Part shown: in pieces, positions 48,007 through 63,329 of the stretch
How positions within the stretch are numbered: the stretch's first letter is position 1
Layout: each line of letters starts with the position of its first letter
Source: an uncultured Planctomycetia bacterium
Lineage (GTDB): Bacteria > Omnitrophota > Gorgyraeia > Duberdicusellales > 4484-171
DNA length: 64,000 bases
Assembly: GCA_964489445.1 (NCBI GenBank)
Contig: CAZAYU010000005.1
Coordinates: forward strand, 68,799-132,798
Direction of reading: 5' to 3'
The notes under the pieces: model-generated
Database searches by the model: none
What the model saw: only the letters and a program-made list of their open reading frames with translations
What the model was told of the DNA's origin: nothing
Program-made: the position numbers and the translations under genes

Positions 48007-48013
48007 GTTTACA

Positions 48014-49255: not shown

Positions 49256-49919
49256 TCTTGTCCTTTTGCGAAATCTTTTTTATAACTTCAGATAGTACCC
49301 CTGTGCCCTTTACTGCATGCTGTACTTCTTCTAGAGTTATCCATCCATTCTTTAAAGAATATTTCTCTTCTTTTAAAAGAAAACAAATTGCTTCTTCTTC
49401 ACTGGCATTAACTATTAATAGGCTCTTAGCTTCTTTTGATTCAATCATTATCCGTCCTTGCTCAAGAACCTGGCTTATTTGATCTTCCTCAAACGTAAGG
49501 TACAAAACAGGTCCTTGGCATCCAAAATTGATAGCTGCCTCTGCTATTGGCGTTGAAGGCAATGTATAAACAAATAAGCTCCCTCGAGACAACTTCCGCC
49601 CACACTCAACATAATCTTTAAAATATTTTATATTTGATTGCAAACATCCCTCTTCATCTGTGCTCAAAATACCTAAATCCTGCATTGTTCCCTTTGAATA
49701 ATCAACACCTGCATCAAATAAAGCTAAAGAAATTGCGAAGCACGTATTTCTTGAAACTTTATCAAATCTTCCAAAATTCTTAATAGGCTCTAACAAAATA
49801 GACGCATCTCTGAGAGTTGAGTGCATTTTCTTCCTATCTGAGTATTCAGTTATATTTTTTCTAAATACACTTCCAAACTTATTTTCTGTGATCCAGCCTA
49901 TTCCTTGAACAATAATCAT
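49230..49919 (-). CDS. truncated ketosynthase-like (N-terminal thiolase-fold half, no catalytic residues)
   Basis: LPSTPIAEAAINFGCQGPVLYL resembles KS motif seen in 41052-41993; start set at ATG (MIIVQGIGWI). Confidence 0.45.
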   Translation of the reverse strand: MIIVQGIGWITENKFGSVFRKNITEYSDRKKMHSTLRDASILLEPIKNFGRFDKVSRNTCFAISLALFDAGVDYSKGTMQDLGILSTDEEGCLQSNIKYFKDYVECGRKLSRGSLFVYTLPSTPIAEAAINFGCQGPVLYLTFEEDQISQVLEQGRIMIESKEAKSLLIVNASEEEAICFLLKEEKYSLKNGWITLEEVQHAVKGTGVLSEVIKKISQKDKNEVTDYIS

Positions 49920-49977
49920 ACTATTTCCCTGAACTCCTATTATCAATACTAAATTGATTCCCTACCAGCCAAGAGTA

Positions 49978-50321: not shown

Positions 50322-51458
50322 TTATTCACATGCGACTATTATTAACGCAGAATTAATTCCACCAAATCCAGAGTTTGTTGACAAAACAATATTGTTTTTA
50401 AGCCTAACTTCTTCTTTTTGAATCCACCCTACAGCTTCCTCATCAATATTTTCCGCCCCTACCGTAGGTGGCAAAACATTATTTTGAATAGTTTCTAGCG
50501 CCACCAGAGCATCCATAAGACCAGCTGATCCCATAGTGTGTCCAATTCCACCTTTGATAGAGTAGGTTGGAAGAACTTTACCGCCAAATATACTTTTAAA
50601 TGCTTTCATCTCCATCGAATCGTTATATACCGTTCCTGTCCCATGTGCACAAATACTATTGATTTCTTCGGCTGTTATGCCTCCTGATTCTAGCGCTCTG
50701 TCTATAGCCAAGAATAGACCTTCCCCGTCTATGGACGGACCGGTCACATGGTTTGCATCGCAAGAAATTCCCCAACCTAAAATGCCTCCCTTAACGGGTC
50801 TCTTCTCTTTATCCGCTCTTTCCTTCGACATAAGAAGAATACAAGCTGTCGCTTCCCCAACATTAAGACCCTCTCTATTTTTATCAAATGGTCGAGCGTT
50901 ATATCTATCTAAAGCCATCAGCGATGAAAATCCGGAAATAATAAACTCGCTTACACAATCACAAGAAACAACCAAAACACATTCACTCTTTTTAGACCTA
51001 ATTAACGATGCAGCTCGAGCAATAGCAACGCTAGAGGATGCACATGCAGCAGAAATCAGCATTCCTTTCCCTCTTACCTTAAAAAGATCATGTGTTTTTG
51101 CCAATAAAAGACCTAATCGACTCTCCTCTGAGCTTTTTTTTCCTGTTAACATCTCATCTTCAAGAAAATCAATCTCGCCATTTAAAGACGCGAGCATCAA
51201 GTCAGCATCTTCCGGTATTGAATTGTTAATATTTTCCTTAAGCCTTTCCATCATTTGAAAAACAAGTGATTTCTCATTCCTAGAAACAAGGCCCTTAATT
51301 GTAGCTGCTTTGTTTGATTTGAAATGCCTGGTGTCAAATCTTTTAATGTCATCTATTGAAGTTTGATTACTAAGCAAGCCTTGCCAGCAAACATCTATTC
51401 CTTCTCCATAAGGGGTAACCGCATTATAGTCAACTATGACCGGACTTGCCTTCAGCAT
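50322..51458 (-). CDS. beta-ketoacyl-ACP synthase (KS)
   Basis: AACASSSVAIA active Cys, AHGTGT, GHTMGSAG. Confidence 0.8.
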   Translation of the reverse strand: MLKASPVIVDYNAVTPYGEGIDVCWQGLLSNQTSIDDIKRFDTRHFKSNKAATIKGLVSRNEKSLVFQMMERLKENINNSIPEDADLMLASLNGEIDFLEDEMLTGKKSSEESRLGLLLAKTHDLFKVRGKGMLISAACASSSVAIARAASLIRSKKSECVLVVSCDCVSEFIISGFSSLMALDRYNARPFDKNREGLNVGEATACILLMSKERADKEKRPVKGGILGWGISCDANHVTGPSIDGEGLFLAIDRALESGGITAEEINSICAHGTGTVYNDSMEMKAFKSIFGGKVLPTYSIKGGIGHTMGSAGLMDALVALETIQNNVLPPTVGAENIDEEAVGWIQKEEVRLKNNIVLSTNSGFGGINSALIIVACE

Positions 51459-51928
51459 GAATATTCACCCTTTACCCATTTCTCGCGACACTTTTCAAGC
51501 ATGGCAGGCATTGCAATATATGGTTCCTGAGATTTAGCATCAACAAACATCTGCACAGTATATCCTGTTGCTGCAACTTGCCCATCCTCTTTAATAATTA
51601 CATATTCAATATTGATCCTTGCCCCTTCACTCCAGATCATATTTGCTTCAACATGACAAACCTCATCAAGAATCAATGGCGCATGATAATCAATATGCAT
51701 TTGCACAATTGGCGCACGTAAGCCTGCTTCATAGAATTCCCTGTAAGATAAGCCCCATTTCCGCCCTATAGCGGAAAATCCCTCTTCGAAATATTCTGCA
51801 TACCTGCCATGCCACACAACTCCCATCACGTCGACATCGCTGAAACTTACTCTCTTCTCAACTCGCACAATCAAAGGAGCAGGGCCTTCTGGAATTATCT
51901 TAAAATATTTGCCTAGTTTTCTTCTCAT
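51452..51928 (-). CDS. hot-dog fold acyl-CoA/ACP thioesterase (4HBT/YbgC-like)
   Basis: VSFSDVDVMGVVWHGRYAEYFEEG. Confidence 0.7.
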   Translation of the reverse strand: MRRKLGKYFKIIPEGPAPLIVRVEKRVSFSDVDVMGVVWHGRYAEYFEEGFSAIGRKWGLSYREFYEAGLRAPIVQMHIDYHAPLILDEVCHVEANMIWSEGARINIEYVIIKEDGQVAATGYTVQMFVDAKSQEPYIAMPAMLEKCREKWVKGEYSC

Positions 51929-51940
51929 TACGTAACCCCG

Positions 51941-52309
51941 TTAAAATATCAGCTTTAGTTCAGCGACCTTTTCCTCTTTTTTGACAATGAGAACTTTAAC
52001 AGATAAATTCTCTAAACTCTCGTTCTCAAAACACTTAAATATCAATTCTTCATCACAGGTTGTAGGCTGAAAGAATTTTGCAAGTTTTATTTCCTTCAGC
52101 TCAAGATTATCCTTACCTTTCCACTTCTTTATAACCTCTACTGCCGATAAAATCTTGCAGACTCCAGGCAAAACAGGATTGTTTTCGAAATGCCCCTGAA
52201 ACCCGAGGAACTCTTTATCAAAAATAAAGTTTGCCGTTGCCATGCGCTTATCGATAATATCTATATTGCACATACATCTATTTATGTCCCCTATTAGATC
52301 GCAGCTCAT
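51941..52309 (-). CDS. FabZ-like 3-hydroxyacyl-ACP dehydratase (hot-dog)
   Basis: LGFQGHFENNPVLPGV matches the FabZ HFPxxPxxPGV motif. Confidence 0.65.
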   Translation of the reverse strand: MSCDLIGDINRCMCNIDIIDKRMATANFIFDKEFLGFQGHFENNPVLPGVCKILSAVEVIKKWKGKDNLELKEIKLAKFFQPTTCDEELIFKCFENESLENLSVKVLIVKKEEKVAELKLIF

Positions 52310-52971
52310 AACACCTCTTTGACGTTGATTATCAGCTTGTAGCCATATAAGTAGTTTGCAAAAATTATCCCTTTAGGATACACTTTTCCATCTTTTTCCA
52401 TATATTCATAATATCTGGCCGACCAAGCCTTCTTTTTTCCTTCATAATGTACCTTCTCAATCAAATAATTCTCTTTGCCTGCAAAAACATACTCCGTAAT
52501 CCCAGCGTCTTGTTTCTGGCTAAATATAATTTCTTTTTTCTTCTTTTTAATTTCAAAAAACTTTAATGGTGCCTGGTCAAAATATATACGGTAAATATCC
52601 TTAACCAAAGCTTTCGAAATATCTCCCTTCTTAGAAATTTCATCGATAACATTATTGACCGTGACTTCCCCGTTCTTCGCTGCAATTTCAATGAGCTTTA
52701 CTCCAACAGAATTCATGCCAGCTAATTCGAATGCTTTTTCATTTTCATCAACAGAAAGATATCCTAACGAAAGAAATTTCCTTGCTCTAAACTGAAACAC
52801 AACGGTATTAATAATCTTGAAGCTCTCTGGCGTCAACGCAATATGCTTCCTTAAAACATCTTCAGGATTTCTATTAGTGATTAATATATATTCCGTCTTT
52901 TTAAATGGCACAAAACTGCATCCACCAATAAAACATATAGATAACAAAAGAATACAAACCTGTTTTCTCAC
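52306..52971 (-). CDS. lipoprotein (lipobox FIGGCS), possibly DUF3261-like; GTG start overlapping MMPL stop (GTGA)
   Basis: GGAGGA SD 8 nt before GTG at 52971; MRKQVCILLLSICFIGGCSF signal peptide. Confidence 0.5.
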   Translation of the reverse strand: MRKQVCILLLSICFIGGCSFVPFKKTEYILITNRNPEDVLRKHIALTPESFKIINTVVFQFRARKFLSLGYLSVDENEKAFELAGMNSVGVKLIEIAAKNGEVTVNNVIDEISKKGDISKALVKDIYRIYFDQAPLKFFEIKKKKKEIIFSQKQDAGITEYVFAGKENYLIEKVHYEGKKKAWSARYYEYMEKDGKVYPKGIIFANYLYGYKLIINVKEVL

Positions 52972-55352
52972 TGAGATCCTCCAGGAGAAATCCACAGCCG
53001 ATAACAAGCTGGGACTACAAAAGCTGCAGTCAAATAACCTGAAAATATTCCTATAGCCATAGTAACTCCCACATAAAACAAAACTGGATGTGTCGCTAAA
53101 AGCAAAACGCTTCCCCCGGCAATAGTTGTTGCTGCAGATAATGTGACAGCTAAAAAAGTTCCTGCTTCTAATTTAAACTTACAGTCGTAGACCATAAAAA
53201 CCCCATAATCGATGCAAAGCCCAACAACGACTAGAACAGCTATCATCGATGGCGCATTCAAAGAATACCCTAACAATGAAAAACCGCCAATAATCATAAA
53301 GATACTCGTTACAACAGGAAGTAAAGCCAACAAGGTCAACCGAATACTCTTTAGCAACAAAATTGTTAAGATTACAATTAATAATCCAGCTATCCAAGAA
53401 AGTTTTTTAACTTCTTGACCTGCTGATTCCGAAATAGATTTAGCCATGCTATTCCTTGAGATAATAAATGTATCTGCCATCTTACTGCTTATTTTTCGAG
53501 CCTTATCGACTAGAACTTTTTTATCCGGAAAATAGGTTATCGCATAATACCCGCTCTTTGTTTTTTGAAAAAAACGCTTCTTGGCCTGATCAAGCAACTT
53601 TGGATCTGCTAGCTTGGTGTCTTCCTCTTGGCTTATATACAGGCTATCAAAAAATGGCTTAAAGGCATCTTCAGAATATCCATAATCATTTCCTTGCTCC
53701 CGAAGAAGAATCTTTAATTCTTCCTCATGCTTATTCTTCCAGAATAAATCCCACTGCAATAGATTCTCTACCCTTGTCTCTTTGGATGGATAAACACTCG
53801 CGATATTTGAGAATTCTTTGTTCTTAAAGCTTTTGCTCATTTCCATGTTAAGAACTTCATTTACCTTAAGAACCTCCTCTCTCTTCCCTGCTTGTGCAAC
53901 TAACATAGCACATTCATTGTCAGCTCCCCACGTCTTGCGAAATTGCTCTTCCGCGTCAAAAATATTCTTTGAGCTTCCATCATAAACTCTTATATCATTA
54001 CTAAATGTTAAATTTTGAGAGAAAAAAACAAATACGCCTACAACAATAATCCACAAAAATATAATAATCCGGTCATCTAGAATATGGTACTTGTTGCAAA
54101 AGCTCATTTTTGCAAAAGGAGCTCTTTCCTTCTTTTCATAAAATAATCTCGGCAAAATAAACAAATAGAAAAAGATGCTAATAATAATACTCAAATTCGT
54201 CAATAACGCAAATTGCTGAAAACCATAAATACTAGAGAAGAAAAATGATGTAAAAACCCCCATTGTTGTAAATACCCCAACCAAAATAGGCTTCGCAACC
54301 TTGTTCACCTTTTCCATTCCACCTGCTTGCATAGCCAGATAAATATGGATACCATAGTCAACGGTTATCCCTGCGATAACCGCAGCCAAGCCAACAACAA
54401 AAGGTGAAAGCGCACCCATCTTCATTGAAGCTATATTCATAGAGATAACAATCGCGACTACGGGAATAATAAACACTAAAAGTGCACGAACACTTCTAAA
54501 CACAATAATAAGCAAAATCAAAAGGATAAAAGTAACAGCAAAAACTGTTTTGGTAATATCTTTCTTCAAAATGTCTTCATTACTTATTGTATGAAGATGT
54601 CCGCCGATGATATCCACATCAATATAATCCGGCAATAGTTTGATCTGTTCCCTTATATAATTAATCAACTTTCTTGAACCAACACTATCTGTTATAGGAA
54701 CCGATGTCGATAATATTAACATCACATGTTTTTCGTTCATACTCACAAAATGTTCGTGCTTAAATTGTGCCTGATATCCTATCGACTCTGCCAAGTCCTT
54801 CATTTTTATTAAATACTTTATTTTGATGCCAAGAGGATCATTCTGAATAAAGTATTTCATAAAAATGCTATTCATCGAAAGCATACTCTTGTAACCTTGC
54901 TTCAATCTTTCTTTGACATTCTCAGGGTTAATCTCTTTCTTGATGGAAAACAAGTCTTCTTCTGATACAACCTGCGGAACATAATCTAAAAATTCTTTAA
55001 CATCTTCTAAGACTTCATTCTCGGTTATTCCCTCCTCAATCTTCATAACAAAAGGTAGCTTTAAACCATTTTTTAGCTGATCAGCAGCTTTAATAAGATC
55101 GACCATTGTCTTACCCTCTCCTTTAAGGTGCAACGACAGGACAACTTTATCTGAAAAGTTTGATTCTCTTAAGAATTTCAGTGATTTTGAGAATTCTGCG
55201 TTTTTCGGAAGCATGATTTCAACATCATTGTTAAAAGAGGCAGAAAATAATCGAAAGACCGAAATCAAGAATACGATTACAACCAAAGAAATTGTTAATT
55301 TTCTTTTTTTATTTAGCAAGGAATATATTTTTTCGAATAAATGATTAATCAC
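52968..55352 (-). CDS. MMPL/RND-superfamily exporter (predicted lipid exporter, COG4258-like)
   Basis: 794 aa, two 6-TM bundles each followed by large periplasmic domain. Confidence 0.75.
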   Translation of the reverse strand: MINHLFEKIYSLLNKKRKLTISLVVIVFLISVFRLFSASFNNDVEIMLPKNAEFSKSLKFLRESNFSDKVVLSLHLKGEGKTMVDLIKAADQLKNGLKLPFVMKIEEGITENEVLEDVKEFLDYVPQVVSEEDLFSIKKEINPENVKERLKQGYKSMLSMNSIFMKYFIQNDPLGIKIKYLIKMKDLAESIGYQAQFKHEHFVSMNEKHVMLILSTSVPITDSVGSRKLINYIREQIKLLPDYIDVDIIGGHLHTISNEDILKKDITKTVFAVTFILLILLIIVFRSVRALLVFIIPVVAIVISMNIASMKMGALSPFVVGLAAVIAGITVDYGIHIYLAMQAGGMEKVNKVAKPILVGVFTTMGVFTSFFFSSIYGFQQFALLTNLSIIISIFFYLFILPRLFYEKKERAPFAKMSFCNKYHILDDRIIIFLWIIVVGVFVFFSQNLTFSNDIRVYDGSSKNIFDAEEQFRKTWGADNECAMLVAQAGKREEVLKVNEVLNMEMSKSFKNKEFSNIASVYPSKETRVENLLQWDLFWKNKHEEELKILLREQGNDYGYSEDAFKPFFDSLYISQEEDTKLADPKLLDQAKKRFFQKTKSGYYAITYFPDKKVLVDKARKISSKMADTFIISRNSMAKSISESAGQEVKKLSWIAGLLIVILTILLLKSIRLTLLALLPVVTSIFMIIGGFSLLGYSLNAPSMIAVLVVVGLCIDYGVFMVYDCKFKLEAGTFLAVTLSAATTIAGGSVLLLATHPVLFYVGVTMAIGIFSGYLTAAFVVPACYRLWISPGGSQ

Positions 55353-56004
55353 TTGCTTTAACTTTCCATACTTGTGGATCCAACTTTATATTAATCAATG
55401 TTTCCAGAAAGTGGAACTTTGTTGAATCGCCATTTGTCTCTAAGATATCAATCGTATCAATATATTTTTCATTTTTTTGAAAAAGGATAACAATGTTTTT
55501 TATCATTTTGAATGCCATAGAATTCTTGAAAGGTATGAATTTTAATTTCATAGGCGAAGACTGTATTACTTCAATATCGTACTCATCAATAAGAGATAGA
55601 TATGAACCAGAAACCCATCTCTTCATTTGGTTTGCAATAATATTAAACGATGGGTTGCTTGTTAAGTTAATTTTCTGAATTTGGTTTGTATCTTCATCCC
55701 ATTGCATAACAACATTATCCTTTAAAATAATTCTTTGCCTCAAAGGTGAACTGATATGCCAAGCAAAAGAAGATGGGTTACGCAAAAATAAATAACCTTT
55801 AATTGTTAGCTTCTGCCCAAACAAGGATAAATTCTTTTCCTCGATAAACTGTGTCGAGAGCGTTGTAATGCTTGACATTTTTTCCTCTATTATCCTCAGA
55901 TCATTTATCAAGTTAGAATTGGCTTCTTTGCAAATTCCGCTTAAAACAAATATATGCATAAATAAAATCATTAAAATTAGAACTCGAATCTTTACACGTC
56001 TCAT
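55345..56004 (-). CDS. LolA-like periplasmic lipid/lipoprotein carrier
   Basis: Signal peptide, 219 aa, immediately upstream of MMPL exporter as in APE clusters; fold call by context. Confidence 0.45.
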   Translation of the reverse strand: MRRVKIRVLILMILFMHIFVLSGICKEANSNLINDLRIIEEKMSSITTLSTQFIEEKNLSLFGQKLTIKGYLFLRNPSSFAWHISSPLRQRIILKDNVVMQWDEDTNQIQKINLTSNPSFNIIANQMKRWVSGSYLSLIDEYDIEVIQSSPMKLKFIPFKNSMAFKMIKNIVILFQKNEKYIDTIDILETNGDSTKFHFLETLINIKLDPQVWKVKASD

Positions 56005-57506
56005 TGAACTAGCGTCAGCCTCCCCACTTCTGCATTCTCGCTATGCCAAATCTTAACTTCCCCTCTTGCTAAGACTCTATTGCCTTTTACAACCTCTCCC
56101 TCGACTATTGCAAAATTTCCATATCTTGCTTTTTTCTCTATAGAGATCAAAAGGGTATCTCCTACACTTGCATTACCAAAAATCTTCATTTTCTTAGCTC
56201 CTAATAAAAAACCTTCTACCTTGTATCCAGGGTTCCCTAGATTCTTAAAACAATTATGTGCTGCTATTGTCTGCGCTATCATCTCTAAATAAATTGCGCC
56301 ATTAAGTTGCCCCTTCTTGTCAATAAAAAGCATGTTTTCTGAAATGCGTACTGAGGCCTCTGCCCTTCGATCGCGGACACTCAACAGCTTATCAATAACT
56401 CTCATTGGAGTTTTTTGAGGAATTATATTTTCAACACTAATCGGAAGCTTAGTTATCTCTGACTGCCTGTTATAATTTTTCCAACAAAGAGGATCTGAAG
56501 CTAAGTAATCCCCTGTTATCTGATAGGCTGATCCTCGGCATCCATAACAATGATCTAGTTCATCACATGCTCGGCAAGGACCTTTGATAAGATTCTTATA
56601 ATTCTTAAGATCTTCCATAACTTCACTTGTTTCTAAAATATCTTTTAATTTCTTGCTTCTAACATTACCCATAGGGATTGTAACGCCAACACAGGGCATA
56701 ACATCTCCGTTTGCATTGACAAAGCAAGAATACTGATGCCTAAAACACTTATTCCCGATAAGCGGCGGTTGAACTTCCCAAGTATTTCCATATTTTTCTT
56801 TGTCGATCTTAGCAATCTTCTTAAATAATCTCTCTACTTCCAAAGAGTCAACTTCCAACCATTGGTGATCGTTAAATTTTCCTTGAGGAGTAATCATCTC
56901 AAAGTAGGGGAGGATATTCCTGTCTCTAAGCCATATCCACAAATCAGTGAGTTCATCTATGTTTTGCTGACAAATAATTGTACTCACAGCCACATATTTA
57001 TTTTTTGCTGGATATCCCGCTTTTTGGATATTCTCGATAGCTTCTTTTATCATAAGGTGTGATCCCTGAATTCCAGTAAGCATATCCTGCGTTTCTTTAT
57101 TAAATGAATTCATTTTCAAGACAATATTAACACCCAAATCAAACAATGTATTAGCAATAACCTCGTTGACCTGCGAACCGTTGGTAAACATCTCTGATTC
57201 CAGACCTTCATTACGTATAAAAGACAACACTTCAAGAATGTGCGGATAAATCAACGGCTCTCCGCCTAAAACAATAATCTTTTTTGCTCCCAAATTCTTT
57301 GCTTGCAAAATAATATCCTGAATTTGATTTAAATCCATTTCTTTATCAAAAAAAGAATCACTCTTAACATAACAATACGGACATTGAAAATCGCACTTGG
57401 TATTGAATTCAATTTCCATAGATAGCAATCGTCCATGCTCTTTTGCTTCTCTGATCTCTTCACCTGTAAACTCAACATTAAAAATTCTCTTATTACAATC
57501 ACTCAT
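56001..57506 (-). CDS. radical SAM / SPASM-domain enzyme fused to C-terminal hot-dog (FabZ/ApeI-like) domain
   Basis: CDFQCPYC Cx3Cx2C; SPASM Cys clusters CFRHQYSCF...PC and CRACDELDHCYGC; C-terminal 150 aa with YLEMIAQTIAA hot-dog central helix. Confidence 0.75.
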   Translation of the reverse strand: MSDCNKRIFNVEFTGEEIREAKEHGRLLSMEIEFNTKCDFQCPYCYVKSDSFFDKEMDLNQIQDIILQAKNLGAKKIIVLGGEPLIYPHILEVLSFIRNEGLESEMFTNGSQVNEVIANTLFDLGVNIVLKMNSFNKETQDMLTGIQGSHLMIKEAIENIQKAGYPAKNKYVAVSTIICQQNIDELTDLWIWLRDRNILPYFEMITPQGKFNDHQWLEVDSLEVERLFKKIAKIDKEKYGNTWEVQPPLIGNKCFRHQYSCFVNANGDVMPCVGVTIPMGNVRSKKLKDILETSEVMEDLKNYKNLIKGPCRACDELDHCYGCRGSAYQITGDYLASDPLCWKNYNRQSEITKLPISVENIIPQKTPMRVIDKLLSVRDRRAEASVRISENMLFIDKKGQLNGAIYLEMIAQTIAAHNCFKNLGNPGYKVEGFLLGAKKMKIFGNASVGDTLLISIEKKARYGNFAIVEGEVVKGNRVLARGEVKIWHSENAEVGRLTLVQ

Positions 57507-58807
57507 TATTTTCTCCTATCAAAAAACCGAATTGGTTTTCTATTGTCTTGAGCATAAATAATTCTTTTCATAGCATCGTCTTTTTCTAAAATAATTATTG
57601 GTTTTACGCGTAGACTTGCCTGTATTCTTTCCTGTAAAAATTCTAAATCAAGGGCAAGATCATTAATAGCTACATGAATAATCAAACTGTCAGAAAGAGC
57701 GCTCTCGCTTATTGCCTCGATATAATATTCTTGAACTTCTTTGGTGCTATCTAATACAGCATAGACAGCTTGCGGATAAAGAGTCGTTCCTTTGACTTTC
57801 ATCATTTGTTTTTTCCTGCCAAGAATAGGCCCTAAACGCTTTGATTTTCTTCCGCACTTGCAAGGCTCACTCATCAAAAAACTAATATCCCCCGTCTTAT
57901 AACGCACTAACGGCATCCCCTCAATTCCAAGCGGTGTGATAACAACTTCTCCGGTTATTCCGTCATCCAAAATATTTCCTTGATCGTCAACGATCTCAAT
58001 AACTGCTAAATCAGGATGTAAATGCCCTCCGTGTTGCGCTTCGCATTCACAAAAAGTGGTAACTATCTCTGAAGAGGCATAAGTGGAATACACTTTTGCA
58101 CCCCAAATTTCTTCCAGCTCAAGGCCAACACTTAGCAACTCTACTTTTTCATTACGCAGGGGTTCGCCAATACAAATAATTCGTTTCACGCTTGATAAGG
58201 GCTGCTCTCCATCTTCCTTTTTCATATAAAGTCCCAATTTTCTAATAAAAGATGGCACACCCACAATGGCCGTTGGTTTCATTTTACCAATAACTTCTTT
58301 GTGGCTATCTAAACTTCCATGTCCATTACGTATTGCAGATGCTCCTAAATTAGTTATTCCTAAAAAATAGGCTAACCCTGCAATAAAACATCTATCCATT
58401 GTGCATGTTAAAAGAACAATATCTTTTTTCGTTAAACCGCAACCAACAAATGATTTCTCTTCATTATATGCAAGACGCGTCAAATCTTGCCCTGTGTACA
58501 TAATCTTGATAGGCTTCCCTGTCGTTCCAGACGAAAGAACAATATCAACAATCTGCTCTGGGTTTACTGCGCGAAATCCATCATTATCATGTTCAATAAA
58601 CAATTTCTCTGTTAAAGGAACATCTTTAAAATTTATAAGATTAACTTTTGTAACATCCTTAATCAGGCCATCTAAAAATTTCCTATAAAAGGGAGACTGG
58701 CTCAAACAATATTTAAGATGGGCTTGAAGCAATTGCGTTTGAACTTGCTCGATTATTTCTTTGCTTTCAAATCCGATATCTTTATATTTATAAAAATCTC
58801 TCATCAT
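57506..58807 (-). CDS. phenylacetate-CoA ligase family adenylating enzyme (PaaK/CapK-like)
   Basis: SSGTTGKPIKIMYT P-loop, 433 aa. Confidence 0.7.
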   Translation of the reverse strand: MMRDFYKYKDIGFESKEIIEQVQTQLLQAHLKYCLSQSPFYRKFLDGLIKDVTKVNLINFKDVPLTEKLFIEHDNDGFRAVNPEQIVDIVLSSGTTGKPIKIMYTGQDLTRLAYNEEKSFVGCGLTKKDIVLLTCTMDRCFIAGLAYFLGITNLGASAIRNGHGSLDSHKEVIGKMKPTAIVGVPSFIRKLGLYMKKEDGEQPLSSVKRIICIGEPLRNEKVELLSVGLELEEIWGAKVYSTYASSEIVTTFCECEAQHGGHLHPDLAVIEIVDDQGNILDDGITGEVVITPLGIEGMPLVRYKTGDISFLMSEPCKCGRKSKRLGPILGRKKQMMKVKGTTLYPQAVYAVLDSTKEVQEYYIEAISESALSDSLIIHVAINDLALDLEFLQERIQASLRVKPIIILEKDDAMKRIIYAQDNRKPIRFFDRRK

Positions 58808-59556
58808 GTTTGATCCATTTTTATTAATTCATTTCTCATGATTTCTCTCACCCTATTCTTCAGAACAAAGGAATTCATATCTTTGTAATCGTTCCAATGT
58901 AAGGCTAATAACTTGTGAATCTTAATAGTCCCAGGGTTTAATACAAAGGAACCCTTAGCCGGTTTATTTTCATTTCCTGAAATACAAAAAGGAACAATAG
59001 AGCACTTTGTTTCTATTGCTGCCCTAAAAATAGAGCTATAGAATTGTCCTGGTTCCTTACTGTCTGATCTCGTCCCTTCTGGAAATGAAACGACATTCAC
59101 TCCTTCTCCGATTAACTTTTTCATTTTTAACAAAAATACATCAATGGACATTTCCTTGACACTCAAATATCCGGCAACCTTAGCACCAAGGCCAAGAACA
59201 GGTAGCTTAAAAGGCCAAGTGTTCACTATTTGAATACCTTCAAAAGGCAAACATGCCATCAAGAACGCATCGGAAGCAGACCTGTGATTGCAAATAAAAA
59301 TAAACGGCCCCACTCTATTGTCATTCCTGCCAAAATCCTCATACTGAACTTTAATGAATGGAAAAGGAAGAACATAGATAATAATCCTTCCGTACCAACC
59401 AATAGCTCTTCGCCATATTTTTAATATAACACGTCTTGGAAAAACCAAAGCACCCAATGAAACCAATAATACTACCGAGGGAATAGCAATAATCGAAAAG
59501 ACGAGAAACATCAAATAAAAAACTACATTTAGAATAAATTTATTAATTTTTTCCAA
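58804..59556 (-). CDS. 1-acyl-sn-glycerol-3-phosphate acyltransferase-like (PlsC/LPLAT)
   Basis: ICNHRSASDAF HX4D motif, FPEGTRS motif III. Confidence 0.75.
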   Translation of the reverse strand: MEKINKFILNVVFYLMFLVFSIIAIPSVVLLVSLGALVFPRRVILKIWRRAIGWYGRIIIYVLPFPFIKVQYEDFGRNDNRVGPFIFICNHRSASDAFLMACLPFEGIQIVNTWPFKLPVLGLGAKVAGYLSVKEMSIDVFLLKMKKLIGEGVNVVSFPEGTRSDSKEPGQFYSSIFRAAIETKCSIVPFCISGNENKPAKGSFVLNPGTIKIHKLLALHWNDYKDMNSFVLKNRVREIMRNELIKMDQT

Positions 59557-59567: not shown

Positions 59568-59837
59568 TTATCTATCAACTGAGAAATTCCCTTCTTTATA
59601 AAGAGATTCAATAAAACTATAAATATCGCCTAATGTCCTTATTTCTCGAACCCTATTATCATCCCTTATTTTCACGCCAAATTTTTTCTGAAGAGCAACA
59701 ACTAGATCAACAATGTCAAGACTGTCTAATCCAAGGTCTTCAAAGATGCCTTTCTCAGAGGACAGCTCTCCTTTATTTATTTCAAAAGACTCCTCAAAAA
59801 CTTGGTTGACCATCTCTTCTATCTTTTTCTTATCCAT
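59568..59837 (-). CDS. acyl carrier protein (ACP 3 of 3)
   Basis: EDLGLDSLDIVDLVVALQKKFG. Confidence 0.8.
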   Translation of the reverse strand: MDKKKIEEMVNQVFEESFEINKGELSSEKGIFEDLGLDSLDIVDLVVALQKKFGVKIRDDNRVREIRTLGDIYSFIESLYKEGNFSVDR

Positions 59838-59855: not shown

Positions 59856-61079
59856 TTAAAGTATCTTTTTGCAGATTAAAGACGCGTTTATCCCTCCGAA
59901 AGCAAAACAATTCTTTAGTATAGAATTAATCTTCTTGTCTTGAATCTCCATGACATGGTTAATGCCTTTACAGTCTTCTGCAATATCATCCAAATTCTTC
60001 GTGGGATAAATTTTGCTTTTCTGCATCATTTTAAGAGCAGCAATCAATTCTATAGACCCTGAAGCACCTAAAGTATGCCCTATATACCCCTTCAAACTAC
60101 TTACTGGTACTTTATCCCCAAATATCTCCTTTAAAGCTCCAGCCTCTTCTTGATCTCCATGAATAGTAGCTGTTGCGTGTGCATTAATATAATCAATGTT
60201 AGCTGACTGCATGCCTGCGCTTTTAAGTGCCTCTTTCATACAGAAAACCATTGCTTCTCTACTTGGTTGGCTTACATGCTCTCCACTTCCGCATGTATGA
60301 TACCCGGCTACTTCCGCATAAATATTTGCATTCCTTTTTTGTGCATGTTCGTAATCTTCTAAAATGAGGATTCCACTTCCTTCACCACAGACTAATCCAT
60401 CTCTACCCTTATCAAAAGGCCTTGGAGTACACTTCGGATTATCATTAAAGTGTGTAGATGTTGCGAAGAGAATATCAAAGGAGCCTGCAACGATTGCATG
60501 TAACTCTTCTGCCCCTCCACAGAGAATAACATCTTGCTTGCCAGACTGAATAATCCCATAAGCCGCACCTACTGCCTGTAGGGCAGATGCACAAGCTGCT
60601 GATGTTGCCATGACATATCCTTTAATCCCAAAACATTGTGAAACATTCATCGCTGCTGTGTGAGAAACACATTTGAAAAAATTCATTGAAGATAATTTAG
60701 ATAAATCTTTTTCTGGAAGCATCATTTCAAACGTATCATTCATTGCTTCAGCTCCACCCATTGTGGATCCGATGATGCATCCCGTGCGAGCAGATGCAAT
60801 AACGCTTTCACTTAAGCCAGAATCCTTCACTGCCTCTTCAGATGCTTGCGCAGCAAAGATGCCCATCCGCCCCATAGAACGTCTCTTTTTTCTTGGAATG
60901 CTTCTTTCATCCTCTATCTTTGCAGGAGCGGCTATTAATGTGTTTAGCCCAATATACTCTTTCCACTTTTCCATTCTCTGGACAGCGCTTCTATTAGTCT
61001 CTAGCCCCTGAATATACTCTTCGACATTAACTCCTAAAGGACAAACTACACCCATCCCAGTTATCACAACTCTTTTCAT
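59856..61079 (-). CDS. beta-ketoacyl-ACP synthase II-like (FabF family)
   Basis: MKRVVITGMGVVCPLG, SAACASALQA active Cys, HATAT, GHTLGASG. Confidence 0.85.
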   Translation of the reverse strand: MKRVVITGMGVVCPLGVNVEEYIQGLETNRSAVQRMEKWKEYIGLNTLIAAPAKIEDERSIPRKKRRSMGRMGIFAAQASEEAVKDSGLSESVIASARTGCIIGSTMGGAEAMNDTFEMMLPEKDLSKLSSMNFFKCVSHTAAMNVSQCFGIKGYVMATSAACASALQAVGAAYGIIQSGKQDVILCGGAEELHAIVAGSFDILFATSTHFNDNPKCTPRPFDKGRDGLVCGEGSGILILEDYEHAQKRNANIYAEVAGYHTCGSGEHVSQPSREAMVFCMKEALKSAGMQSANIDYINAHATATIHGDQEEAGALKEIFGDKVPVSSLKGYIGHTLGASGSIELIAALKMMQKSKIYPTKNLDDIAEDCKGINHVMEIQDKKINSILKNCFAFGGINASLICKKIL

Positions 61080-62572
61080 CGGTGTAACCTTGCTTTAATA
61101 AAATTATTGTAATCATCTCGCCCAACAATACTCCTTGCCACAATAAAAGAAGACATCATCGCACCCACGACTCCTGGCAAAACAGAACTTTGCCCACACG
61201 CATAAAGATTTCGCAAAGGAAGCTTTCCAAACACATTAAACTGACCCATCTTTTGTTTGATCCCATAGGCTGTACATTCGTATGAGTTCAAATAATCCCT
61301 ATACGTAAGAATAGAAGCAGCGCAAATAACTTTAAATGAATCCCTGTAAGCTGGATTATATTGAAAAATTCTTTCTTTAATCTGTTGCTCCCGGTTCTTT
61401 TTGTATTCATAGTAGGCCTTCGGCCGTTTTCCAACACTAGAATCCAGCCATTGAGAGACATCTTCACTAGACGAAGACTCCATGGCGGTAAGGACCTTGA
61501 CCTTTTTGCTATCAATATCTTCATAAGAAGTCATTAGTACAAGAGCTGAGCAACCATTGTCGGAAGGCTCAAACAGCGTGTTCACGTCATCCGAAGGAAG
61601 AAGGGAAACAATGCTTGGTGTAAAATCATTATCATCAGCTTCGACAATACCAAACAGAGAAAAAAATCCAGACGCAGGCTCAAAATCACTAACCCTCATC
61701 AAAAAAGCCTTAGTCAAATTATCTTTCGGAAGGCTCTCAACAATAGCCTTGGGATGAATTGTAAAAATACATTGATTACAAGATAACTCCTCGCCCGTAC
61801 TTAAAATGAACTTCTTGACAATATTGCCCTCGACATCTAAAAACTTATCAATAGTGCACTTTGTTTTAATATCAACTCCAAGCTCAAGAAGTGCATCTTT
61901 AAACGCGCTAACGAATGCTCCTCCGCCTCTCTTAATCCGCACGACGCTATCGTACATTCCATACGCAACACGAAAATGATTCGCAACTGAAACCTCTGAC
62001 GGCCTTACCCCGTAACACATACAAAATGTTGATAATATACCCTTTAAGTATCTGCTCTTAAAAGACTTATCTAGGACTTCTTGTAGGCTAATATAATCCT
62101 CATCTAAGATATTAGTAACTTCAGTAATCCTTAAAAGATCTAAAGAAGCAGTCTCCTCGTAGATCTTCTTAGCTAAATTAAAAAAATAATCAATGCCCTC
62201 TTCCTCACCCGGGAAAAATTCTTTGAGTTTTTCAATAAAGCTTAAAACCCCATTCGGCATATAATATTTCTTGTGATCATTCTCGAAGATATACGCCTGG
62301 CCCTCTTTATCGGAAAGTATTACTGGCTCAATTTTATTCTCTATCCCCAGAACACTGAGCATATCATGCAAAACCCCATTCTCTAAGAATGCCCCTGTAA
62401 AATGGAATCCTGTATCAAAAGGAATTCCTTCTTTAACAAAACGTGACATACTCCCACCAATACGATTTGACTTCTCAACAATTAAAACCTTCTGTCCGTT
62501 TAAAGCAAGAATATTCGCAAGTGTCAAGCCACTTATTCCACTACCCACAACTATACTGTCATAAAATTTCAT
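61076..62572 (-). CDS. CrtI-like (phytoene-desaturase family) FAD-dependent oxidoreductase/desaturase
   Basis: YDSIVVGSGISGLTLANILALNGQKVLIVEKSNRIGG; about 500 aa COG1233 architecture; start trimmed to MKFYD. Confidence 0.6.
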   Translation of the reverse strand: MKFYDSIVVGSGISGLTLANILALNGQKVLIVEKSNRIGGSMSRFVKEGIPFDTGFHFTGAFLENGVLHDMLSVLGIENKIEPVILSDKEGQAYIFENDHKKYYMPNGVLSFIEKLKEFFPGEEEGIDYFFNLAKKIYEETASLDLLRITEVTNILDEDYISLQEVLDKSFKSRYLKGILSTFCMCYGVRPSEVSVANHFRVAYGMYDSVVRIKRGGGAFVSAFKDALLELGVDIKTKCTIDKFLDVEGNIVKKFILSTGEELSCNQCIFTIHPKAIVESLPKDNLTKAFLMRVSDFEPASGFFSLFGIVEADDNDFTPSIVSLLPSDDVNTLFEPSDNGCSALVLMTSYEDIDSKKVKVLTAMESSSSEDVSQWLDSSVGKRPKAYYEYKKNREQQIKERIFQYNPAYRDSFKVICAASILTYRDYLNSYECTAYGIKQKMGQFNVFGKLPLRNLYACGQSSVLPGVVGAMMSSFIVARSIVGRDDYNNFIKARLHR

Positions 62573-62582
62573 ACTACCAACC

Positions 62583-63329
62583 TTAGATAACAAGCCCTCC
62601 ATTAACCCCAATAACTTGCCCGTGAATATACATATCCTTCTCATTGCATAAAAACCCTACAACAGAGGCAATATCCTTCGGCTTTCCTGTCTTTTTCAAA
62701 GGAATCAAAGGCAAAACTTTGTCTTTTGGTATGCCTTTAGTCATATCCGTATCAATAAAACCTGGAGAGACAACATTAACAAAAATATTCTTCTTTCCGA
62801 CCTCTCGCGCCAAAGCTTTGCACGCCCCTATAAGTCCTGCCTTAGAAGCAGAATAATTAACCTGCCCTGCTTGGCCCACCTCTCCCGCAGTTGAAGAAAT
62901 TGCAACAATCCTTCCTCTTTTTTCTCTCAACATTGGGAAAAGAACAGAGTTCGTAACATTATAAAAACCATTTAGATTAGTTGCAATGACATCATTCCAT
63001 TCTTTCTCCGTTGTCCACATCAAAAGATTATCCCTAGTAATGCCTGAATTAAAAACTACTACATAAGGAGGAGTTTCTTCAGCTTTATCGGACAAGGCTT
63101 TCTTAGTTTCAGTATAACTAGAAACATCAAATGAAGATAGTTCACATTTACGCCCTATCTTTTCCACTTCCTTTTTAACAATATCTGCAGCGTTATTATT
63201 ATTTCGATAGGTAAGCCATATATCGAAACCCAAGCTTGCCAGCTTAAGAACAATGGCTTTTCCTATTCCTCTGCTTCCTCCAACTACTAATGCAATTTTG
63301 TTTTTTATTTCATTCATTTTATACTCCAT
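62583..63329 (-). CDS. fabG: 3-oxoacyl-ACP reductase (SDR, FabG-like)
   Basis: ALVVGGSRGIGKAI, NSGI, YSASKAG catalytic Tyr-Lys. Confidence 0.85.
   Translation of the reverse strand: MEYKMNEIKNKIALVVGGSRGIGKAIVLKLASLGFDIWLTYRNNNNAADIVKKEVEKIGRKCELSSFDVSSYTETKKALSDKAEETPPYVVVFNSGITRDNLLMWTTEKEWNDVIATNLNGFYNVTNSVLFPMLREKRGRIVAISSTAGEVGQAGQVNYSASKAGLIGACKALAREVGKKNIFVNVVSPGFIDTDMTKGIPKDKVLPLIPLKKTGKPKDIASVVGFLCNEKDMYIHGQVIGVNGGLVI

What the first reader, a model, noticed from the sequence alone, without database searches (positions are those of the whole stretch)
56001..57506. Radical SAM-SPASM enzyme fused to a hot-dog dehydratase-like domain
Residues 1-340 carry CDFQCPYC plus two SPASM-type auxiliary Cys clusters. 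Residues 350-501 have a FabZ/ApeI-like hot-dog core (YLEMIAQTIAA) without the HFP catalytic His.

SPASM enzymes usually act on peptides. Fusion to an ACP-docking hot-dog module next to a standalone FabZ-like gene (51941-52309) suggests a radical enzyme targeted to an ACP-tethered polyunsaturated acyl chain. The hot-dog domain may act as the non-catalytic partner of a DH heterodimer, as with ApeI:ApeP.
Basis: partly seen in the sequence, partly recalled or inferred. Interest (0 to 1): 0.75.

Follow-up and report, generated by a model that had tools for sequence, protein, structure and literature searches.

The report
Radical SAM enzyme fused to half-dehydratase
This gene really does join an iron-sulfur radical enzyme to one half of a split fatty-acid-type dehydratase, and the fusion is conserved in hundreds of anaerobic bacteria inside a rigid, uncharacterised pigment-lipid operon, which suggests radical chemistry performed directly on a carrier-protein-bound unsaturated lipid chain.

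Summary
ORF 56001-57506 (-), 501 aa, is a radical SAM enzyme (CX3CX2C) with a full SPASM domain of 8 conserved Cys. It is fused to a C-terminal hot-dog domain whose best solved match is ApeP of the ApeI:ApeP dehydratase (6QSR_B).

The fusion is not an artefact. All 120 best database hits and 80/80 fetched genomic loci carry it, and 560 species genomes encode a relative. These are mainly Omnitrophota, Nitrospirota and Desulfobacterota.

The hot-dog domain has no His but keeps an invariant helix Glu (E408). The 122-aa ApeI-like gene at 51941-52309 keeps an invariant His (H40) and lacks that Glu. The two are therefore complementary halves of a dehydratase with one active site. Natural triple fusions (rSAM-SPASM/ApeP-like/ApeI-like) fold as a double hot dog and support the pairing. 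So "non-catalytic partner" is probably wrong in detail.

The gene sits in a rigid ~17-gene flexirubin/aryl-polyene-type operon with no enoyl reductase. The operon also has a phytoene-desaturase-like gene and two B12 radical SAM genes. This is the "ladderane-like" cluster type known since 2009, whose product is unknown.

The radical reaction itself is inferred, not shown. I rate it a new variant of a known kind, of moderate to high interest.

The parts
56001..57506 (-). Whole ORF, 501 aa: radical SAM + SPASM + ApeP-like hot-dog fusion
56907..57425 (-). Radical SAM core (residues ~28-200), including CX3CX2C at 57372-57395 (C38, C42, C45)
   Evidence: Pfam PF04055 E 3e-20; translation CDFQCPYC; the three Cys are invariant in 53 homologues; Foldseek matches PqqE, SuiB, SkfB and anSME
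56472..56756 (-). SPASM domain (residues ~251-345) with C254, C261, C272, C311, C314, C320, C323, C341
   Evidence: Pfam PF13186 E 2.9e-10; Cys conservation; the most conserved segment, mean identity 0.69
56409..56471 (-). Interdomain linker (residues 346-366), conserved LP...IPQK.PM motif
56037..56408 (-). ApeP-like hot-dog domain (residues ~367-490). Central helix 405-421 carries the invariant E408 (nt 56283-56285) and Q412. No His at the FabZ HFP position.
51941..52309 (-). ApeI-like 122-aa hot-dog protein, the proposed partner. Invariant H40 (nt 52190-52192) in FQGHF; the FabZ Glu position is L here and Q in most homologues.
   Evidence: present in 57 of 63 loci long enough to show it
57506..58807 (-). 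FlxY-like (PaaK/F390-type) AMP-dependent ligase, immediately upstream and translationally coupled. Probable starter-unit:ACP loader (ApeH analogue).
   Evidence: (NF053551, 454 bits against a cut-off of 520); also adjacent to the unfused sister rSAM
59568..59837 (-). Acyl carrier protein
58804..59556 (-). PlsC-type acyltransferase (ApeD analogue)
   Evidence: 67/67 eligible loci
59856..61079 (-). Ketosynthase KS1 (Cys-His-His intact)
61076..62644 (-). Phytoene-desaturase/CrtD-like FAD oxidoreductase
62583..63329 (-). FabG/FlxB-like ketoreductase
55345..56004 (-). LolA-like carrier (ApeL / LolA2_flexi-like)
52968..55352 (-). MMPL/RND transporter (ApeM analogue)
52306..53007 (-). DUF3261 / LolB-like protein (ApeN analogue)
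51452..51928 (-). 4HBT hot-dog thioesterase (ApeK analogue)
50322..51458 (-). Ketosynthase KS2 (active-site Cys present)
49230..49946 (-). 238-aa KS-like protein with no Pfam hit and no active-site Cys; probable CLF-like partner
   Evidence: the syntenic gene in L083 carries a ketoacyl-synt hit
48014..49255 (-). B12-binding radical SAM protein (divergent)
46633..48027 (-). B12-binding radical SAM protein, member of TIGR04072 'lipid biosynthesis B12-binding/radical SAM protein'
   Evidence: 609 bits, cut-off 360
45450..46646 (-). GT2 glycosyltransferase + DUF2062 (ApeJ analogue)

Best explanation
The ORF encodes a bifunctional subunit of a flexirubin/aryl-polyene-type type II PKS/FAS lipid pathway in an Omnitrophota bacterium.

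(1) Strongly supported. The C-terminal ApeP-like hot-dog domain pairs with the separately encoded ApeI-like protein (51941-52309). Together they form a heterodimeric beta-hydroxyacyl-ACP dehydratase with one composite active site: His40 from the ApeI-like protein and Glu408 from the fused domain. The symmetry-related second site is dead on both sides.

(2) Inferred from anatomy and context. The pathway has KS/CLF pairs, a KR and this DH, but no enoyl reductase. The DH therefore handles every ACP-bound beta-hydroxy/enoyl intermediate of a growing unsaturated chain. Fusing a catalytically intact radical SAM/SPASM module (three [4Fe-4S] clusters) to the DH places 5'-deoxyadenosyl radical chemistry next to that ACP-tethered chain.

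(3) Inferred from family knowledge. SPASM enzymes of the PqqE/AhbD/anSME type abstract an H atom and pass the second electron to the auxiliary clusters. The most likely reaction is therefore a net two-electron oxidation of the acyl-ACP intermediate. This could be C-C bond formation or cyclisation, or an O2-independent desaturation. It would act together with the tightly coupled upstream FlxY-like ligase that loads the starter.

The product is then attached to a lipid anchor (PlsC-like AT, GT2-DUF2062) and exported to the outer membrane (LolA/LolB-like proteins, MMPL).

My probabilities: step 1 about 0.8. That the rSAM substrate is an ACP-bound intermediate of this pathway, about 0.6. That the chemistry is oxidative C-C formation or desaturation, about 0.4.
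For: Domains and cofactor ligands. AF2 model pLDDT 84.5, pTM 0.85.

Foldseek: the N-terminal part matches PqqE, SuiB, SkfB, CteB and anSME. The C-terminal part matches 6qsr_B (ApeP) best, then FabZs. No thioesterase appears among the top 50.

Complementary residues: E408 and Q412 are 53/53 invariant and position 400 is never His. In ApeI-like partners H40 is 58/58, and the FabZ-Glu position is Q (49) or L (8). The partner profile aligns without gaps to ApeI 6qsr_A (E 8.5e-8), which has FRGHFP...PGVAQID.

No standalone ApeP-like ORF lies within +-10 kb in any of 80 loci. An ApeI-like gene is present in 57/63 loci long enough to show it.

Rosetta stones: P0146, P0202 and P0221 carry rSAM-SPASM + ApeP-like (ALIEMLAQ) + ApeI-like (GHFP) in one chain. 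The AF2 model of P0146 has pTM 0.81. Its last ~290 residues align with double-hot-dog PKS/FAS dehydratases.

Published precedent: ApeI/ApeP is a heterodimeric DH with a single active site, and in A. baumannii ApeI is fused to the ligase ApeH (PMC8041823).

Context: gene order is rigid across phyla, with offset IQRs of about 100-200 bp. The operon has ACPs, three active KS, two CLF-like proteins, a FabG/FlxB-like KR and no ER. The ligase is 454 bits to flexirubin FlxY.

Other pathway enzymes are found fused to this protein elsewhere: a PlsC acyltransferase (P0201), LolA (P0121) and B12-rSAMs (P0222, P0155).
Against: No biochemical data exist for any member. Every database name seen is just 'radical SAM protein'.

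The heterodimer is inferred.

An unfused sister subfamily (44% identity) keeps the ligase neighbour but has no ApeI/ApeP genes nearby. The radical reaction therefore does not intrinsically need the dehydratase, and may act on the starter unit and not on elongation intermediates.

Two triple-fusion relatives have lost CX3CX2C, so the protein can persist without radical chemistry.

The isolated hot-dog domain scores only 14 bits against Pfam ApeP-like (cut-off 27). The window's ApeI-like protein scores 20.4 bits (cut-off 28.5).

The nearest NCBIfam models (AhbD and NirJ2, 118 bits against cut-offs of 500) do not define the chemistry.
Confidence: 0.6

Rival explanations
1. Starter-unit model. The radical SAM/SPASM domain works with the adjacent FlxY-like ligase to make or modify the starter acid (or starter-ACP) before elongation. 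The ApeP-like domain is a genuine DH half that merely became fused, for stoichiometry or scaffolding, with no substrate channelling between the two activities.
For: The ligase-rSAM gene pair is the most conserved adjacency (79/80 loci; 73/74 eligible). It persists in the unfused sister subfamily, whose locus has no ApeI/ApeP-like ORF. The operon contains no chorismate lyase or ammonia lyase that could supply an aromatic starter.
Against: The fusion is fixed over at least ~35 clusters at 50% identity, down to about 27-30% identity. Its hot-dog conservation equals that of the rSAM core. AF2 gives a confident inter-domain arrangement (pTM 0.85). That suggests more than loose co-assembly, although none of it proves channelling.
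Confidence: 0.25
2. Recognition-domain model. The hot-dog domain is catalytically inert. It serves only as an acyl-ACP docking or substrate-recognition element for the radical SAM enzyme, like the RRE of peptide-modifying SPASM enzymes.
For: It lacks the catalytic His. Heterodimeric hot-dog dehydratases with one non-catalytic, substrate-shaping subunit are known (HadAB, PMC4491049).
Against: E408 and Q412 of the catalytic helix are invariant in 53/53. The partner has specifically lost that Glu and kept the His in 58/58. No other ApeP-like or complete FabZ gene lies within +-10 kb in any of the 80 loci, so without this domain the operon has no complete DH.
Confidence: 0.1
3. It is a peptide (RiPP) maturase, as most SPASM enzymes are.
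For: SPASM domain. Weak NCBIfam hits to sactipeptide, ranthipeptide and PqqE maturases. Foldseek hits to SuiB, CteB and SkfB.
Against: There is no RRE domain. No family reaches its cut-off. The gene is embedded in a rigid lipid/polyketide operon in 80 loci. It is fused to an acyl-ACP dehydratase half, and elsewhere to a PlsC acyltransferase, LolA and B12-rSAMs.
Confidence: 0.03
4. The cluster makes ladderane lipids and the fusion is a ladderane cyclase.
For: antiSMASH labels such clusters 'ladderane' (PMC9902471). The operon resembles Kuenenia kuste3335-3352 in content: GT, PDH, membrane protein, FabZ, ACP, FabG, two SAM radical enzymes, phenylacetyl-CoA ligase and FabFs (PMC4790861, PMC2649909). 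The B12-rSAM is a TIGR04072 member.
Against: The fusion occurs in Omnitrophota, Nitrospirota and Desulfobacterota. [quoted passage not shown] Desulfotalea, which has the syntenic cluster, makes no ladderanes (PMC2649909). The field now assigns ladderane synthesis to the anammox-specific cluster Kuste3603-3608 (PMC10139942; bioRxiv 10.64898/2026.05.19.726425).
Confidence: 0.02

Closest known systems
ApeI:ApeP heterodimeric dehydratase of aryl-polyene biosynthesis (Xenorhabdus doucetiae, PDB 6QSR)
   Same: The fused domain's best solved match is ApeP (6qsr_B, TM 0.81). The neighbour's profile aligns without gaps to ApeI (6qsr_A). Both systems are split hot-dog dehydratases with a single active site (PMC8041823). 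Both sit in an operon with ligase, ACPs, KS/CLF, KR, TE, PlsC-AT, GT, LolA, DUF3261 and an RND transporter.
   Different: Here the ApeP half is covalently fused to a radical SAM/SPASM enzyme. Where 6qsr_B has His (GHLPG), this family has a variable non-His residue. Sequence identity is only ~22%, and Pfam scores are below the curated cut-offs for the window's two proteins.
Acinetobacter baumannii ApeH-ApeI fusion
   Same: A precedent for fusing one half of the split APE dehydratase to another pathway enzyme. There the partner is the AMP-dependent starter loader (PMC8041823).
   Different: There the His-bearing ApeI half is fused to the ligase. Here the Glu-bearing ApeP half is fused to a radical SAM enzyme encoded next to the ligase.
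SPASM radical SAM enzymes (PqqE, anSME, SuiB/CteB/SkfB, AhbD/NirJ)
   Same: CX3CX2C plus a full SPASM Cys set. Top Foldseek hits and top NCBIfam hits.
   Different: No RRE, and no peptide or tetrapyrrole context. All equivalog scores are far below cut-off (118 against 500). It carries a C-terminal acyl-ACP dehydratase half.
Kuenenia kuste3335-3352 / Desulfotalea psychrophila 'ladderane-like' FASII clusters (Rattray 2009; antiSMASH 'ladderane' type)
   Same: The same unusual gene set: phenylacetyl-CoA-ligase-like gene next to a SAM radical gene, a phytoene-desaturase-like gene, B12-rSAM, MMPL-type membrane protein, GT, ACPs and FabF paralogues (PMC2649909, PMC4790861). Such BGCs are reported and expressed in Omnitrophota and Desulfobacterota (PMC9902471).
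   Different: None of the papers I could read describes the radical SAM/hot-dog fusion or the split-DH logic. I could not check whether Kuste3343/DP1855 carry the hot-dog domain.
Jaw5, the radical SAM cyclopropanase acting with the iterative PKS Jaw4
   Same: A radical SAM enzyme that modifies the alpha,beta-unsaturated thioester produced by a DH step during iterative chain growth (review PMC13459092). This is the working analogy for DH-coupled radical tailoring.
   Different: From my own knowledge, Jaw5 is a HemN-like enzyme and not a SPASM enzyme. It acts in trans and is not fused to a DH. The chemistry here is unknown.
Mycobacterial HadAB/HadBC heterodimeric hot-dog dehydratases
   Same: A heterodimer of two single hot-dog proteins with one active site (PMC4491049, PMC10949391).
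   Different: From my own knowledge, in Had the catalytic residues sit in HadB and the partner only shapes the substrate pocket. Here the two catalytic residues are split between the subunits.

Membership tests
Radical SAM superfamily (PF04055) | CX3CX2C motif binding the SAM-cleaving [4Fe-4S] cluster | tested here: met
   C38-x3-C42-x2-C45, invariant in 53 homologues
Radical SAM superfamily (PF04055) | Profile match above the curated cut-off, and a partial TIM-barrel fold | tested here: met
   73.5 bits against 29.5; Foldseek matches PqqE, MoaA, viperin and anSME with probability 1.00
SPASM subfamily (PF13186) | C-terminal 7-8 Cys motif for two auxiliary [4Fe-4S] clusters | tested here: met
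   40.7 bits against 21.5; C254, C261, C272, C311, C314, C320, C323 and C341 are conserved. Cluster content itself was not measured.
AhbD / NirJ2 heme-biosynthesis rSAM equivalogs (TIGR04545, TIGR04055) | Score above the equivalog cut-off | tested here: not met
   118 bits against a cut-off of 500; no heme-biosynthesis context
ApeP-like dehydratase half (PF22817) | Profile match above the curated cut-off | tested here: inconclusive
   The isolated domain scores 14.1 bits against 27. PF22817 is listed in the precomputed Pfam hits of all 120 full-length homologues.
ApeP-like dehydratase half (PF22817) | Single hot-dog fold closest to ApeP | tested here: met
   6qsr_B is the best hot-dog hit: TM 0.81, rmsd 2.3 A, 141 columns; phmmer E 1e-5
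ApeP-like dehydratase half (PF22817) | Forms a heterodimer with an ApeI-type partner that gives one active site | not testable with these tools
   Supported indirectly by the complementary His/Glu pattern, synteny, and triple fusions that fold as a double hot dog
ApeI-like dehydratase half (PF22818), for the neighbour at 51941-52309 | Profile match and the GHFP...PGV His motif without the helix Glu | tested here: inconclusive
   The window protein scores 20.4 bits against 28.5. 12/14 homologues hit PF22818 at E<=0.01. The family profile matches 6qsr_A at E 8.5e-8. H40 is 58/58 and the Glu is absent.
Flexirubin / aryl-polyene (APE) type biosynthetic operon | AMP-ligase loader, ACP(s), KS/CLF, KR, split DH, TE, PlsC-AT, GT, LolA-like, DUF3261 and an RND/MMPL exporter, with no ER | tested here: met
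   All parts are present by domain. Roles are as described for Ape proteins (bioRxiv 10.1101/2020.12.19.423268).
Flexirubin / aryl-polyene (APE) type biosynthetic operon | Equivalog-level identity to flexirubin proteins (FlxY, FlxB, LolA2, LolB2) | tested here: not met
   454 against 520, 279 against 340, 91 against 125, and 24 against 60 bits. These are related but below the cut-offs. The PDH-like gene and three radical SAM genes are not among the Ape proteins (ApeB-R) described for the canonical cluster (10.1101/2020.12.19.423268).
Anammox ladderane cluster (Kuste3603-3608, 'Cluster I') | Exclusive to ladderane-producing anammox bacteria; amxACP, amxFabZ, FabF2/FabFmut, PDH and B12-rSAM | tested here: not met
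   The closest relatives are Omnitrophota, Nitrospirota and Desulfobacterota. The operon matches the non-specific kuste3335-3352 type (PMC4790861, PMC2649909). Only the B12-rSAM reaches TIGR04072.

The most novel reading that the evidence does not exclude
The fusion is a dedicated 'dehydratase-coupled radical tailoring module'. The DH heterodimer holds each newly formed enoyl/polyenoyl-ACP. The covalently attached SPASM radical SAM domain then acts on it in line, possibly repeatedly, to forge C-C bonds or rings, or to desaturate without O2. The result would be a structurally new class of cyclised or cross-linked polyene outer-membrane lipids in strict anaerobes. It would be the first fatty-acyl/polyketide-ACP-modifying SPASM enzyme. 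It would also be a tractable model for how radical SAM enzymes could work in ladderane-type pathways.
Probability: 0.2. Interest if true: 0.85.

Novelty: new variant of a known kind. Interest (0 to 1): 0.58.

Why it matters
'Ladderane-like' BGCs are detected and expressed in several anaerobe phyla, including Omnitrophota and Desulfobacterota (PMC9902471). Similar clusters were noted in deltaproteobacteria such as Desulfotalea, Geobacter and Pelobacter carbinolicus in 2009 (PMC2649909). In the literature I could search, no product or enzyme function has been established for them.

This fusion physically links a SPASM radical SAM enzyme to an acyl-ACP dehydratase half. That gives a concrete, testable handle: a defined partner (the ApeI-like protein), a defined carrier (the operon's ACPs), and point mutants (H40, E408, CX3CX2C). 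The handle addresses where in the elongation cycle radical chemistry intervenes.

The finding also extends the known plasticity of the split ApeI:ApeP dehydratase. The halves are found free, fused to a ligase, fused to a radical SAM enzyme, or all in one chain.

Tried and rejected
(1) Frameshift or assembly artefact: rejected. The single-ORF architecture occurs in 120/120 hits and 80/80 loci.

(2) Thioesterase-type hot dog: rejected. All hot-dog hits in the top 50 are ApeP or FabZ dehydratases.

(3) A specific curated family for the fusion: none found. NCBIfam gives only sub-threshold AhbD/NirJ2/PqqE-type hits.

(4) Literature on the fusion: searches combining SPASM, radical SAM, hot-dog, FabZ, ApeP, DUF3261, LolA and ladderane found no description of it. 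The primary ApeI:ApeP structure paper (JACS 2019) is not held. The catalytic assignment in ApeI:ApeP therefore rests on PMC8041823 and on the printed alignments.

(5) Whether the anammox homologue (Kuste3343) or Desulfotalea DP1855 carries the hot-dog domain: not resolvable. The papers call them only 'SAM radical enzyme'. My searches listed no anammox-named sequences.

(6) A culturable, named host: not found. A search seeded with a Geobacteraceae member returned only MAG names.

The His40-Glu408 distance and any tunnel to the SAM site could therefore not be measured.

(8) RiPP maturase and ladderane cyclase readings were considered and given low weight (see rivals).
Full report
**Observation**

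The window carries an ORF at 56001-57506 on the minus strand (501 aa). It has a GGAG ribosome-binding site. Its start overlaps the stop of the upstream gene by one base (TAATG). Its stop overlaps the downstream start by four bases (ATGA). It is therefore an internal, translationally coupled gene of an operon.

Pfam finds Radical_SAM (residues 33-186, E 3e-20) and SPASM (254-315, E 2.9e-10), both above the curated thresholds. CDFQCPYC is at residues 38-45. In an alignment of 53 full-length homologues (52-88% identity), several residues are invariant. These are the three CX3CX2C cysteines and the SPASM cysteines C254, C272, C311, C314, C320, C323 and C341. C261 is >=90% conserved. This is the Cys complement expected for two auxiliary [4Fe-4S] clusters.

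NCBIfam gives no equivalog. The best hits, AhbD and NirJ2, score 118 bits against cut-offs of 500.

**The C-terminal domain**

Residues ~367-490 have no significant Pfam hit when scanned within the whole protein. Scanned alone, they score only 14 bits against ApeP-like. However, phmmer against PDB sequences finds ApeP (6qsr_B, E 1e-5), followed by FabZs.

An AF2 model (pLDDT 84.5, pTM 0.85) shows a canonical hot dog. It has two short strands, a long central helix at 405-421 and four long strands. In Foldseek against the PDB, ApeP is the best hot-dog match (TM 0.81, rmsd 2.3 A). FabZs follow, including Scalindua amxFabZ. The N-terminal part matches PqqE, SuiB, SkfB, CteB and anSME.

Those conditions were 'no hot-dog fold' and 'frameshift artefact'. 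All 120 best hits in the 5.8-billion-protein collection are 481-519 aa with the same architecture. 560 species-level genomes encode a relative, and the 80 best loci all carry the single ORF. The hot-dog segment is as conserved as the rSAM core (0.54 against 0.57 mean identity).

**A split dehydratase**

In the fused domain, the FabZ-type catalytic-helix motif is retained. E408 and Q412 are invariant (53/53). The position that is His in FabZ (HFP) and in ApeP (GHLPG) is a variable non-His residue.

The 122-aa protein encoded at 51941-52309 is the mirror image. It has FQGHF...PVLPGV with His40, which is invariant in 58/58 homologues. Where FabZ has the helix Glu it has L, and most homologues have Q (49 of 58). 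A profile of this family matches FabZs at about 1e-8 and ApeI (6qsr_A) at 8.5e-8. The ApeI alignment runs without gaps through the helix; ApeI reads FRGHFPVQPLLPGVAQID. 12 of 14 members hit Pfam ApeI-like.

From established knowledge, FabZ active sites form at the dimer interface, with His from one subunit and Glu from the other. The two proteins are therefore complementary halves that can build exactly one active site. This matches the published description of ApeI/ApeP as a heterodimeric dehydratase with a single active site (PMC8041823).

Four further points support the pairing:
- No standalone ApeP-like ORF exists within +-10 kb of the fusion in any of the 80 loci.
- The ApeI-like gene is present in 57 of 63 loci long enough to contain it, at a fixed offset of about +5.2 kb.
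- Natural triple fusions exist. P0146 is from a Candidatus Aminicenantes MAG, and P0202 and P0221 are similar. Each carries rSAM-SPASM, an ApeP-like domain (ALIEMLAQ) and an ApeI-like domain (F.GHFP) in one chain.
- The AF2 model of P0146 has pTM 0.81, and its C-terminal ~290 residues align as a unit with double-hot-dog PKS/FAS dehydratases.

The fused domain most likely supplies the catalytic Glu.

**Genomic context**

All genes lie on the minus strand. In transcription order they are:
- a PagL-like outer-membrane protein
- a FabG/FlxB-like KR
- a phytoene-desaturase/CrtD-like flavoprotein
- KS1
- an ACP
- a PlsC-type acyltransferase
- a FlxY-like AMP ligase (454 bits to the flexirubin ligase model)
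- the fusion
- a LolA-like protein
- an MMPL/RND transporter
- DUF3261 (LolB-like)
- the ApeI-like protein
- a 4HBT thioesterase
- KS2
- a CLF-like protein without the active-site Cys
- two B12-binding radical SAM proteins, one a full member of TIGR04072 'lipid biosynthesis B12-binding/radical SAM protein'
- GT2-DUF2062
- an LpxL-like acyltransferase
- further downstream, more ACPs and a KS/CLF pair

No enoyl reductase is present.

From the KR to the GT2 gene, order and spacing are almost invariant across the 80 loci, with offset IQRs of about 100-200 bp. By record title, the loci are roughly 33 Nitrospirota, 17 Omnitrophota, 16 Desulfobacterota/'Deltaproteobacteria' and 4 Planctomycetota-labelled MAGs. 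The closest relative (88% identity) is from Candidatus Aceula meridiana, so the window is from an Omnitrophota genome.

The gene set covers the aryl-polyene lipid roles described for ApeD, ApeJ, ApeL, ApeM and ApeN (bioRxiv 10.1101/2020.12.19.423268). To these it adds a desaturase-like flavoprotein and three radical SAM enzymes.

It is the cluster type noted in 2009 in Kuenenia (kuste3335-3352), Desulfotalea, Geobacter and Pelobacter (PMC2649909, PMC4790861). antiSMASH labels it 'ladderane' in Omnitrophota and Desulfobacterota, among others (PMC9902471). The field now attributes ladderane synthesis to a different, anammox-specific cluster (PMC10139942; bioRxiv 10.64898/2026.05.19.726425). Desulfotalea makes no ladderanes (PMC2649909). 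This operon should therefore not be read as a ladderane pathway.

**What limits the mechanistic claim**

A search of 1.84 billion cluster representatives gave 283 hits at E<=1e-30. About 35 of the best 150 are full fusions, with identity down to about 27-30%. Many others are 340-370-aa rSAM-SPASM proteins without the hot dog, at 35-44% identity.

One of these is P0140. It still sits directly downstream of the same type of 432-aa ligase. Its neighbours include a B12-rSAM, GT2-DUF2062, an ACP and KS genes, but no ApeP- or ApeI-like ORF lies within +-10 kb. This sister subfamily is widespread.

The ligase-rSAM pair is therefore the conserved core, and the hot dog is an addition in one large lineage. 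That keeps alive a rival in which the radical reaction concerns the starter unit.

Other observed fusions tie the protein to the pathway's lipid enzymes and not to peptides. Their partners are a PlsC acyltransferase, LolA, and B12-rSAMs in both orders. Two triple-fusion relatives have lost CX3CX2C. The dehydratase or scaffold role can therefore outlive the radical one.

**Most likely mechanism**

Shown or strongly supported: an intact three-cluster SPASM radical SAM enzyme is covalently joined to the Glu-bearing half of an ApeI:ApeP-type dehydratase. Its His-bearing half is encoded in the same operon.

Inferred: in an ER-less KS/KR/DH cycle, the DH binds every ACP-tethered beta-hydroxy/enoyl intermediate. 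The fusion therefore delivers an unsaturated acyl-ACP to the radical SAM site. By analogy with PqqE-, anSME- and AhbD-type SPASM enzymes (family knowledge), the reaction is most likely an H-abstraction-initiated two-electron oxidation. This could be C-C bond formation, cyclisation or O2-independent desaturation.

Jaw5 acts on the enoyl product of a PKS DH step (PMC13459092) and is the best working analogy. The exact chemistry and the product are unknown.

**Novelty and score**

The parts are known kinds. The cluster type has been noticed before. The protein family is abundant in databases, where it is named only 'radical SAM protein'. I found no description of the fusion or of its split-active-site logic in the accessible literature.

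I classify it as a new variant of a known kind and score interest at about 0.58. A specialist would find it a useful and somewhat surprising lead. It makes the role of radical SAM enzymes in acyl-ACP lipid pathways directly testable. It is not a new category of system, and the key chemistry is still inferred.

Noticed in passing
window 46633-48027 (-) and 48014-49255 (-): Two adjacent B12-binding radical SAM genes. The first is a full member of NCBIfam TIGR04072 'lipid biosynthesis B12-binding/radical SAM protein' (609 bits, cut-off 360). The second is divergent (50 bits to the same model; best hit TIGR04013). Both are syntenic in about 40 related loci.
   Followed up: partly
window 49230-49946 (-) and 41052-41993 (-): Two truncated KS-like proteins lack the active-site Cys. 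One has no Pfam hit at all; the other has AAAS in place of ACAS and a weak hit to cispentacin AmcG. Each lies next to an active KS, which suggests KS/CLF-type heterodimers. KS2 and the KS at 42503-43648 also hit cispentacin AmcF below the cut-off.
   Followed up: partly
P0202 and P0221 (relatives found; sequences): These triple-fusion relatives (rSAM-SPASM/ApeP-like/ApeI-like) have lost the CX3CX2C motif but keep most SPASM Cys, the hot-dog Glu and the His. They look like pseudo-radical-SAM scaffolds for a double-hot-dog dehydratase.
   Followed up: partly
P0222, P0155, P0201, P0121: Other fusions of this SPASM enzyme exist: with a B12-binding radical SAM enzyme in both domain orders, with an N-terminal PlsC-type acyltransferase, and with a C-terminal LolA domain. 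I did not check whether any of these are gene-calling read-throughs.
   Followed up: no
L081 (locus of unfused homologue P0140): The unfused ligase + rSAM-SPASM pair sits in a different cluster. That cluster has an alpha/beta hydrolase, a KAS III-like gene, a B12-rSAM, GT2-DUF2062, a polysaccharide-deacetylase/methyltransferase fusion, an ACP, an ABC transporter and a BtrH_N protein. The deacetylase and methyltransferase recall Kuste3351 and Kuste3347 of the Kuenenia cluster.
   Followed up: no
window residue C4 of the ORF (nt ~57495-57497) and C179: An N-terminal Cys (C4, >=90% conserved) and C179 (invariant) are conserved beyond the canonical CX3CX2C and SPASM cysteines. Their role is unknown; they may be an extra cluster ligand or a redox residue.
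   Followed up: no
window 51941-52309 (-), residue C51: The ApeI-like partner has an invariant Cys (58/58) directly after the PGV motif, at the start of the central helix where FabZ has Leu. Its function is unknown.
   Followed up: no
window 49978-50292 (-), 43962-44525 (-), 63337-63999 (-): Two small predicted lipoproteins (lipobox LSGC / ISGC) without family hits, and a PagL-like outer-membrane beta-barrel, flank or interrupt the operon. The PagL-like gene is syntenic in only 8-10 loci, all close relatives.
   Followed up: no
window 38802-40088 (-) and 42025-42480 (-): A 428-aa protein with only a weak Condensation-domain hit (E 0.003) and a SHOCT-domain protein lie within the downstream extension of the cluster, among extra ACP and KS genes.
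   Followed up: no
L003 (DAOVYZ010000017.1): This contig is labelled Bacteroidales, but its fusion gene is 78% identical to the Omnitrophota gene. It is probably a mis-binned or mislabelled MAG contig.
   Followed up: no
whole window: GC skew is negative in all but one of the 2-kb bins over the 64 kb, at about 34-42% GC. In the annotated stretch (38.8-64 kb) every gene assigned to the cluster is on the minus strand. This is consistent with a single replichore arm in which the sequenced strand is the lagging-strand template.
   Followed up: no
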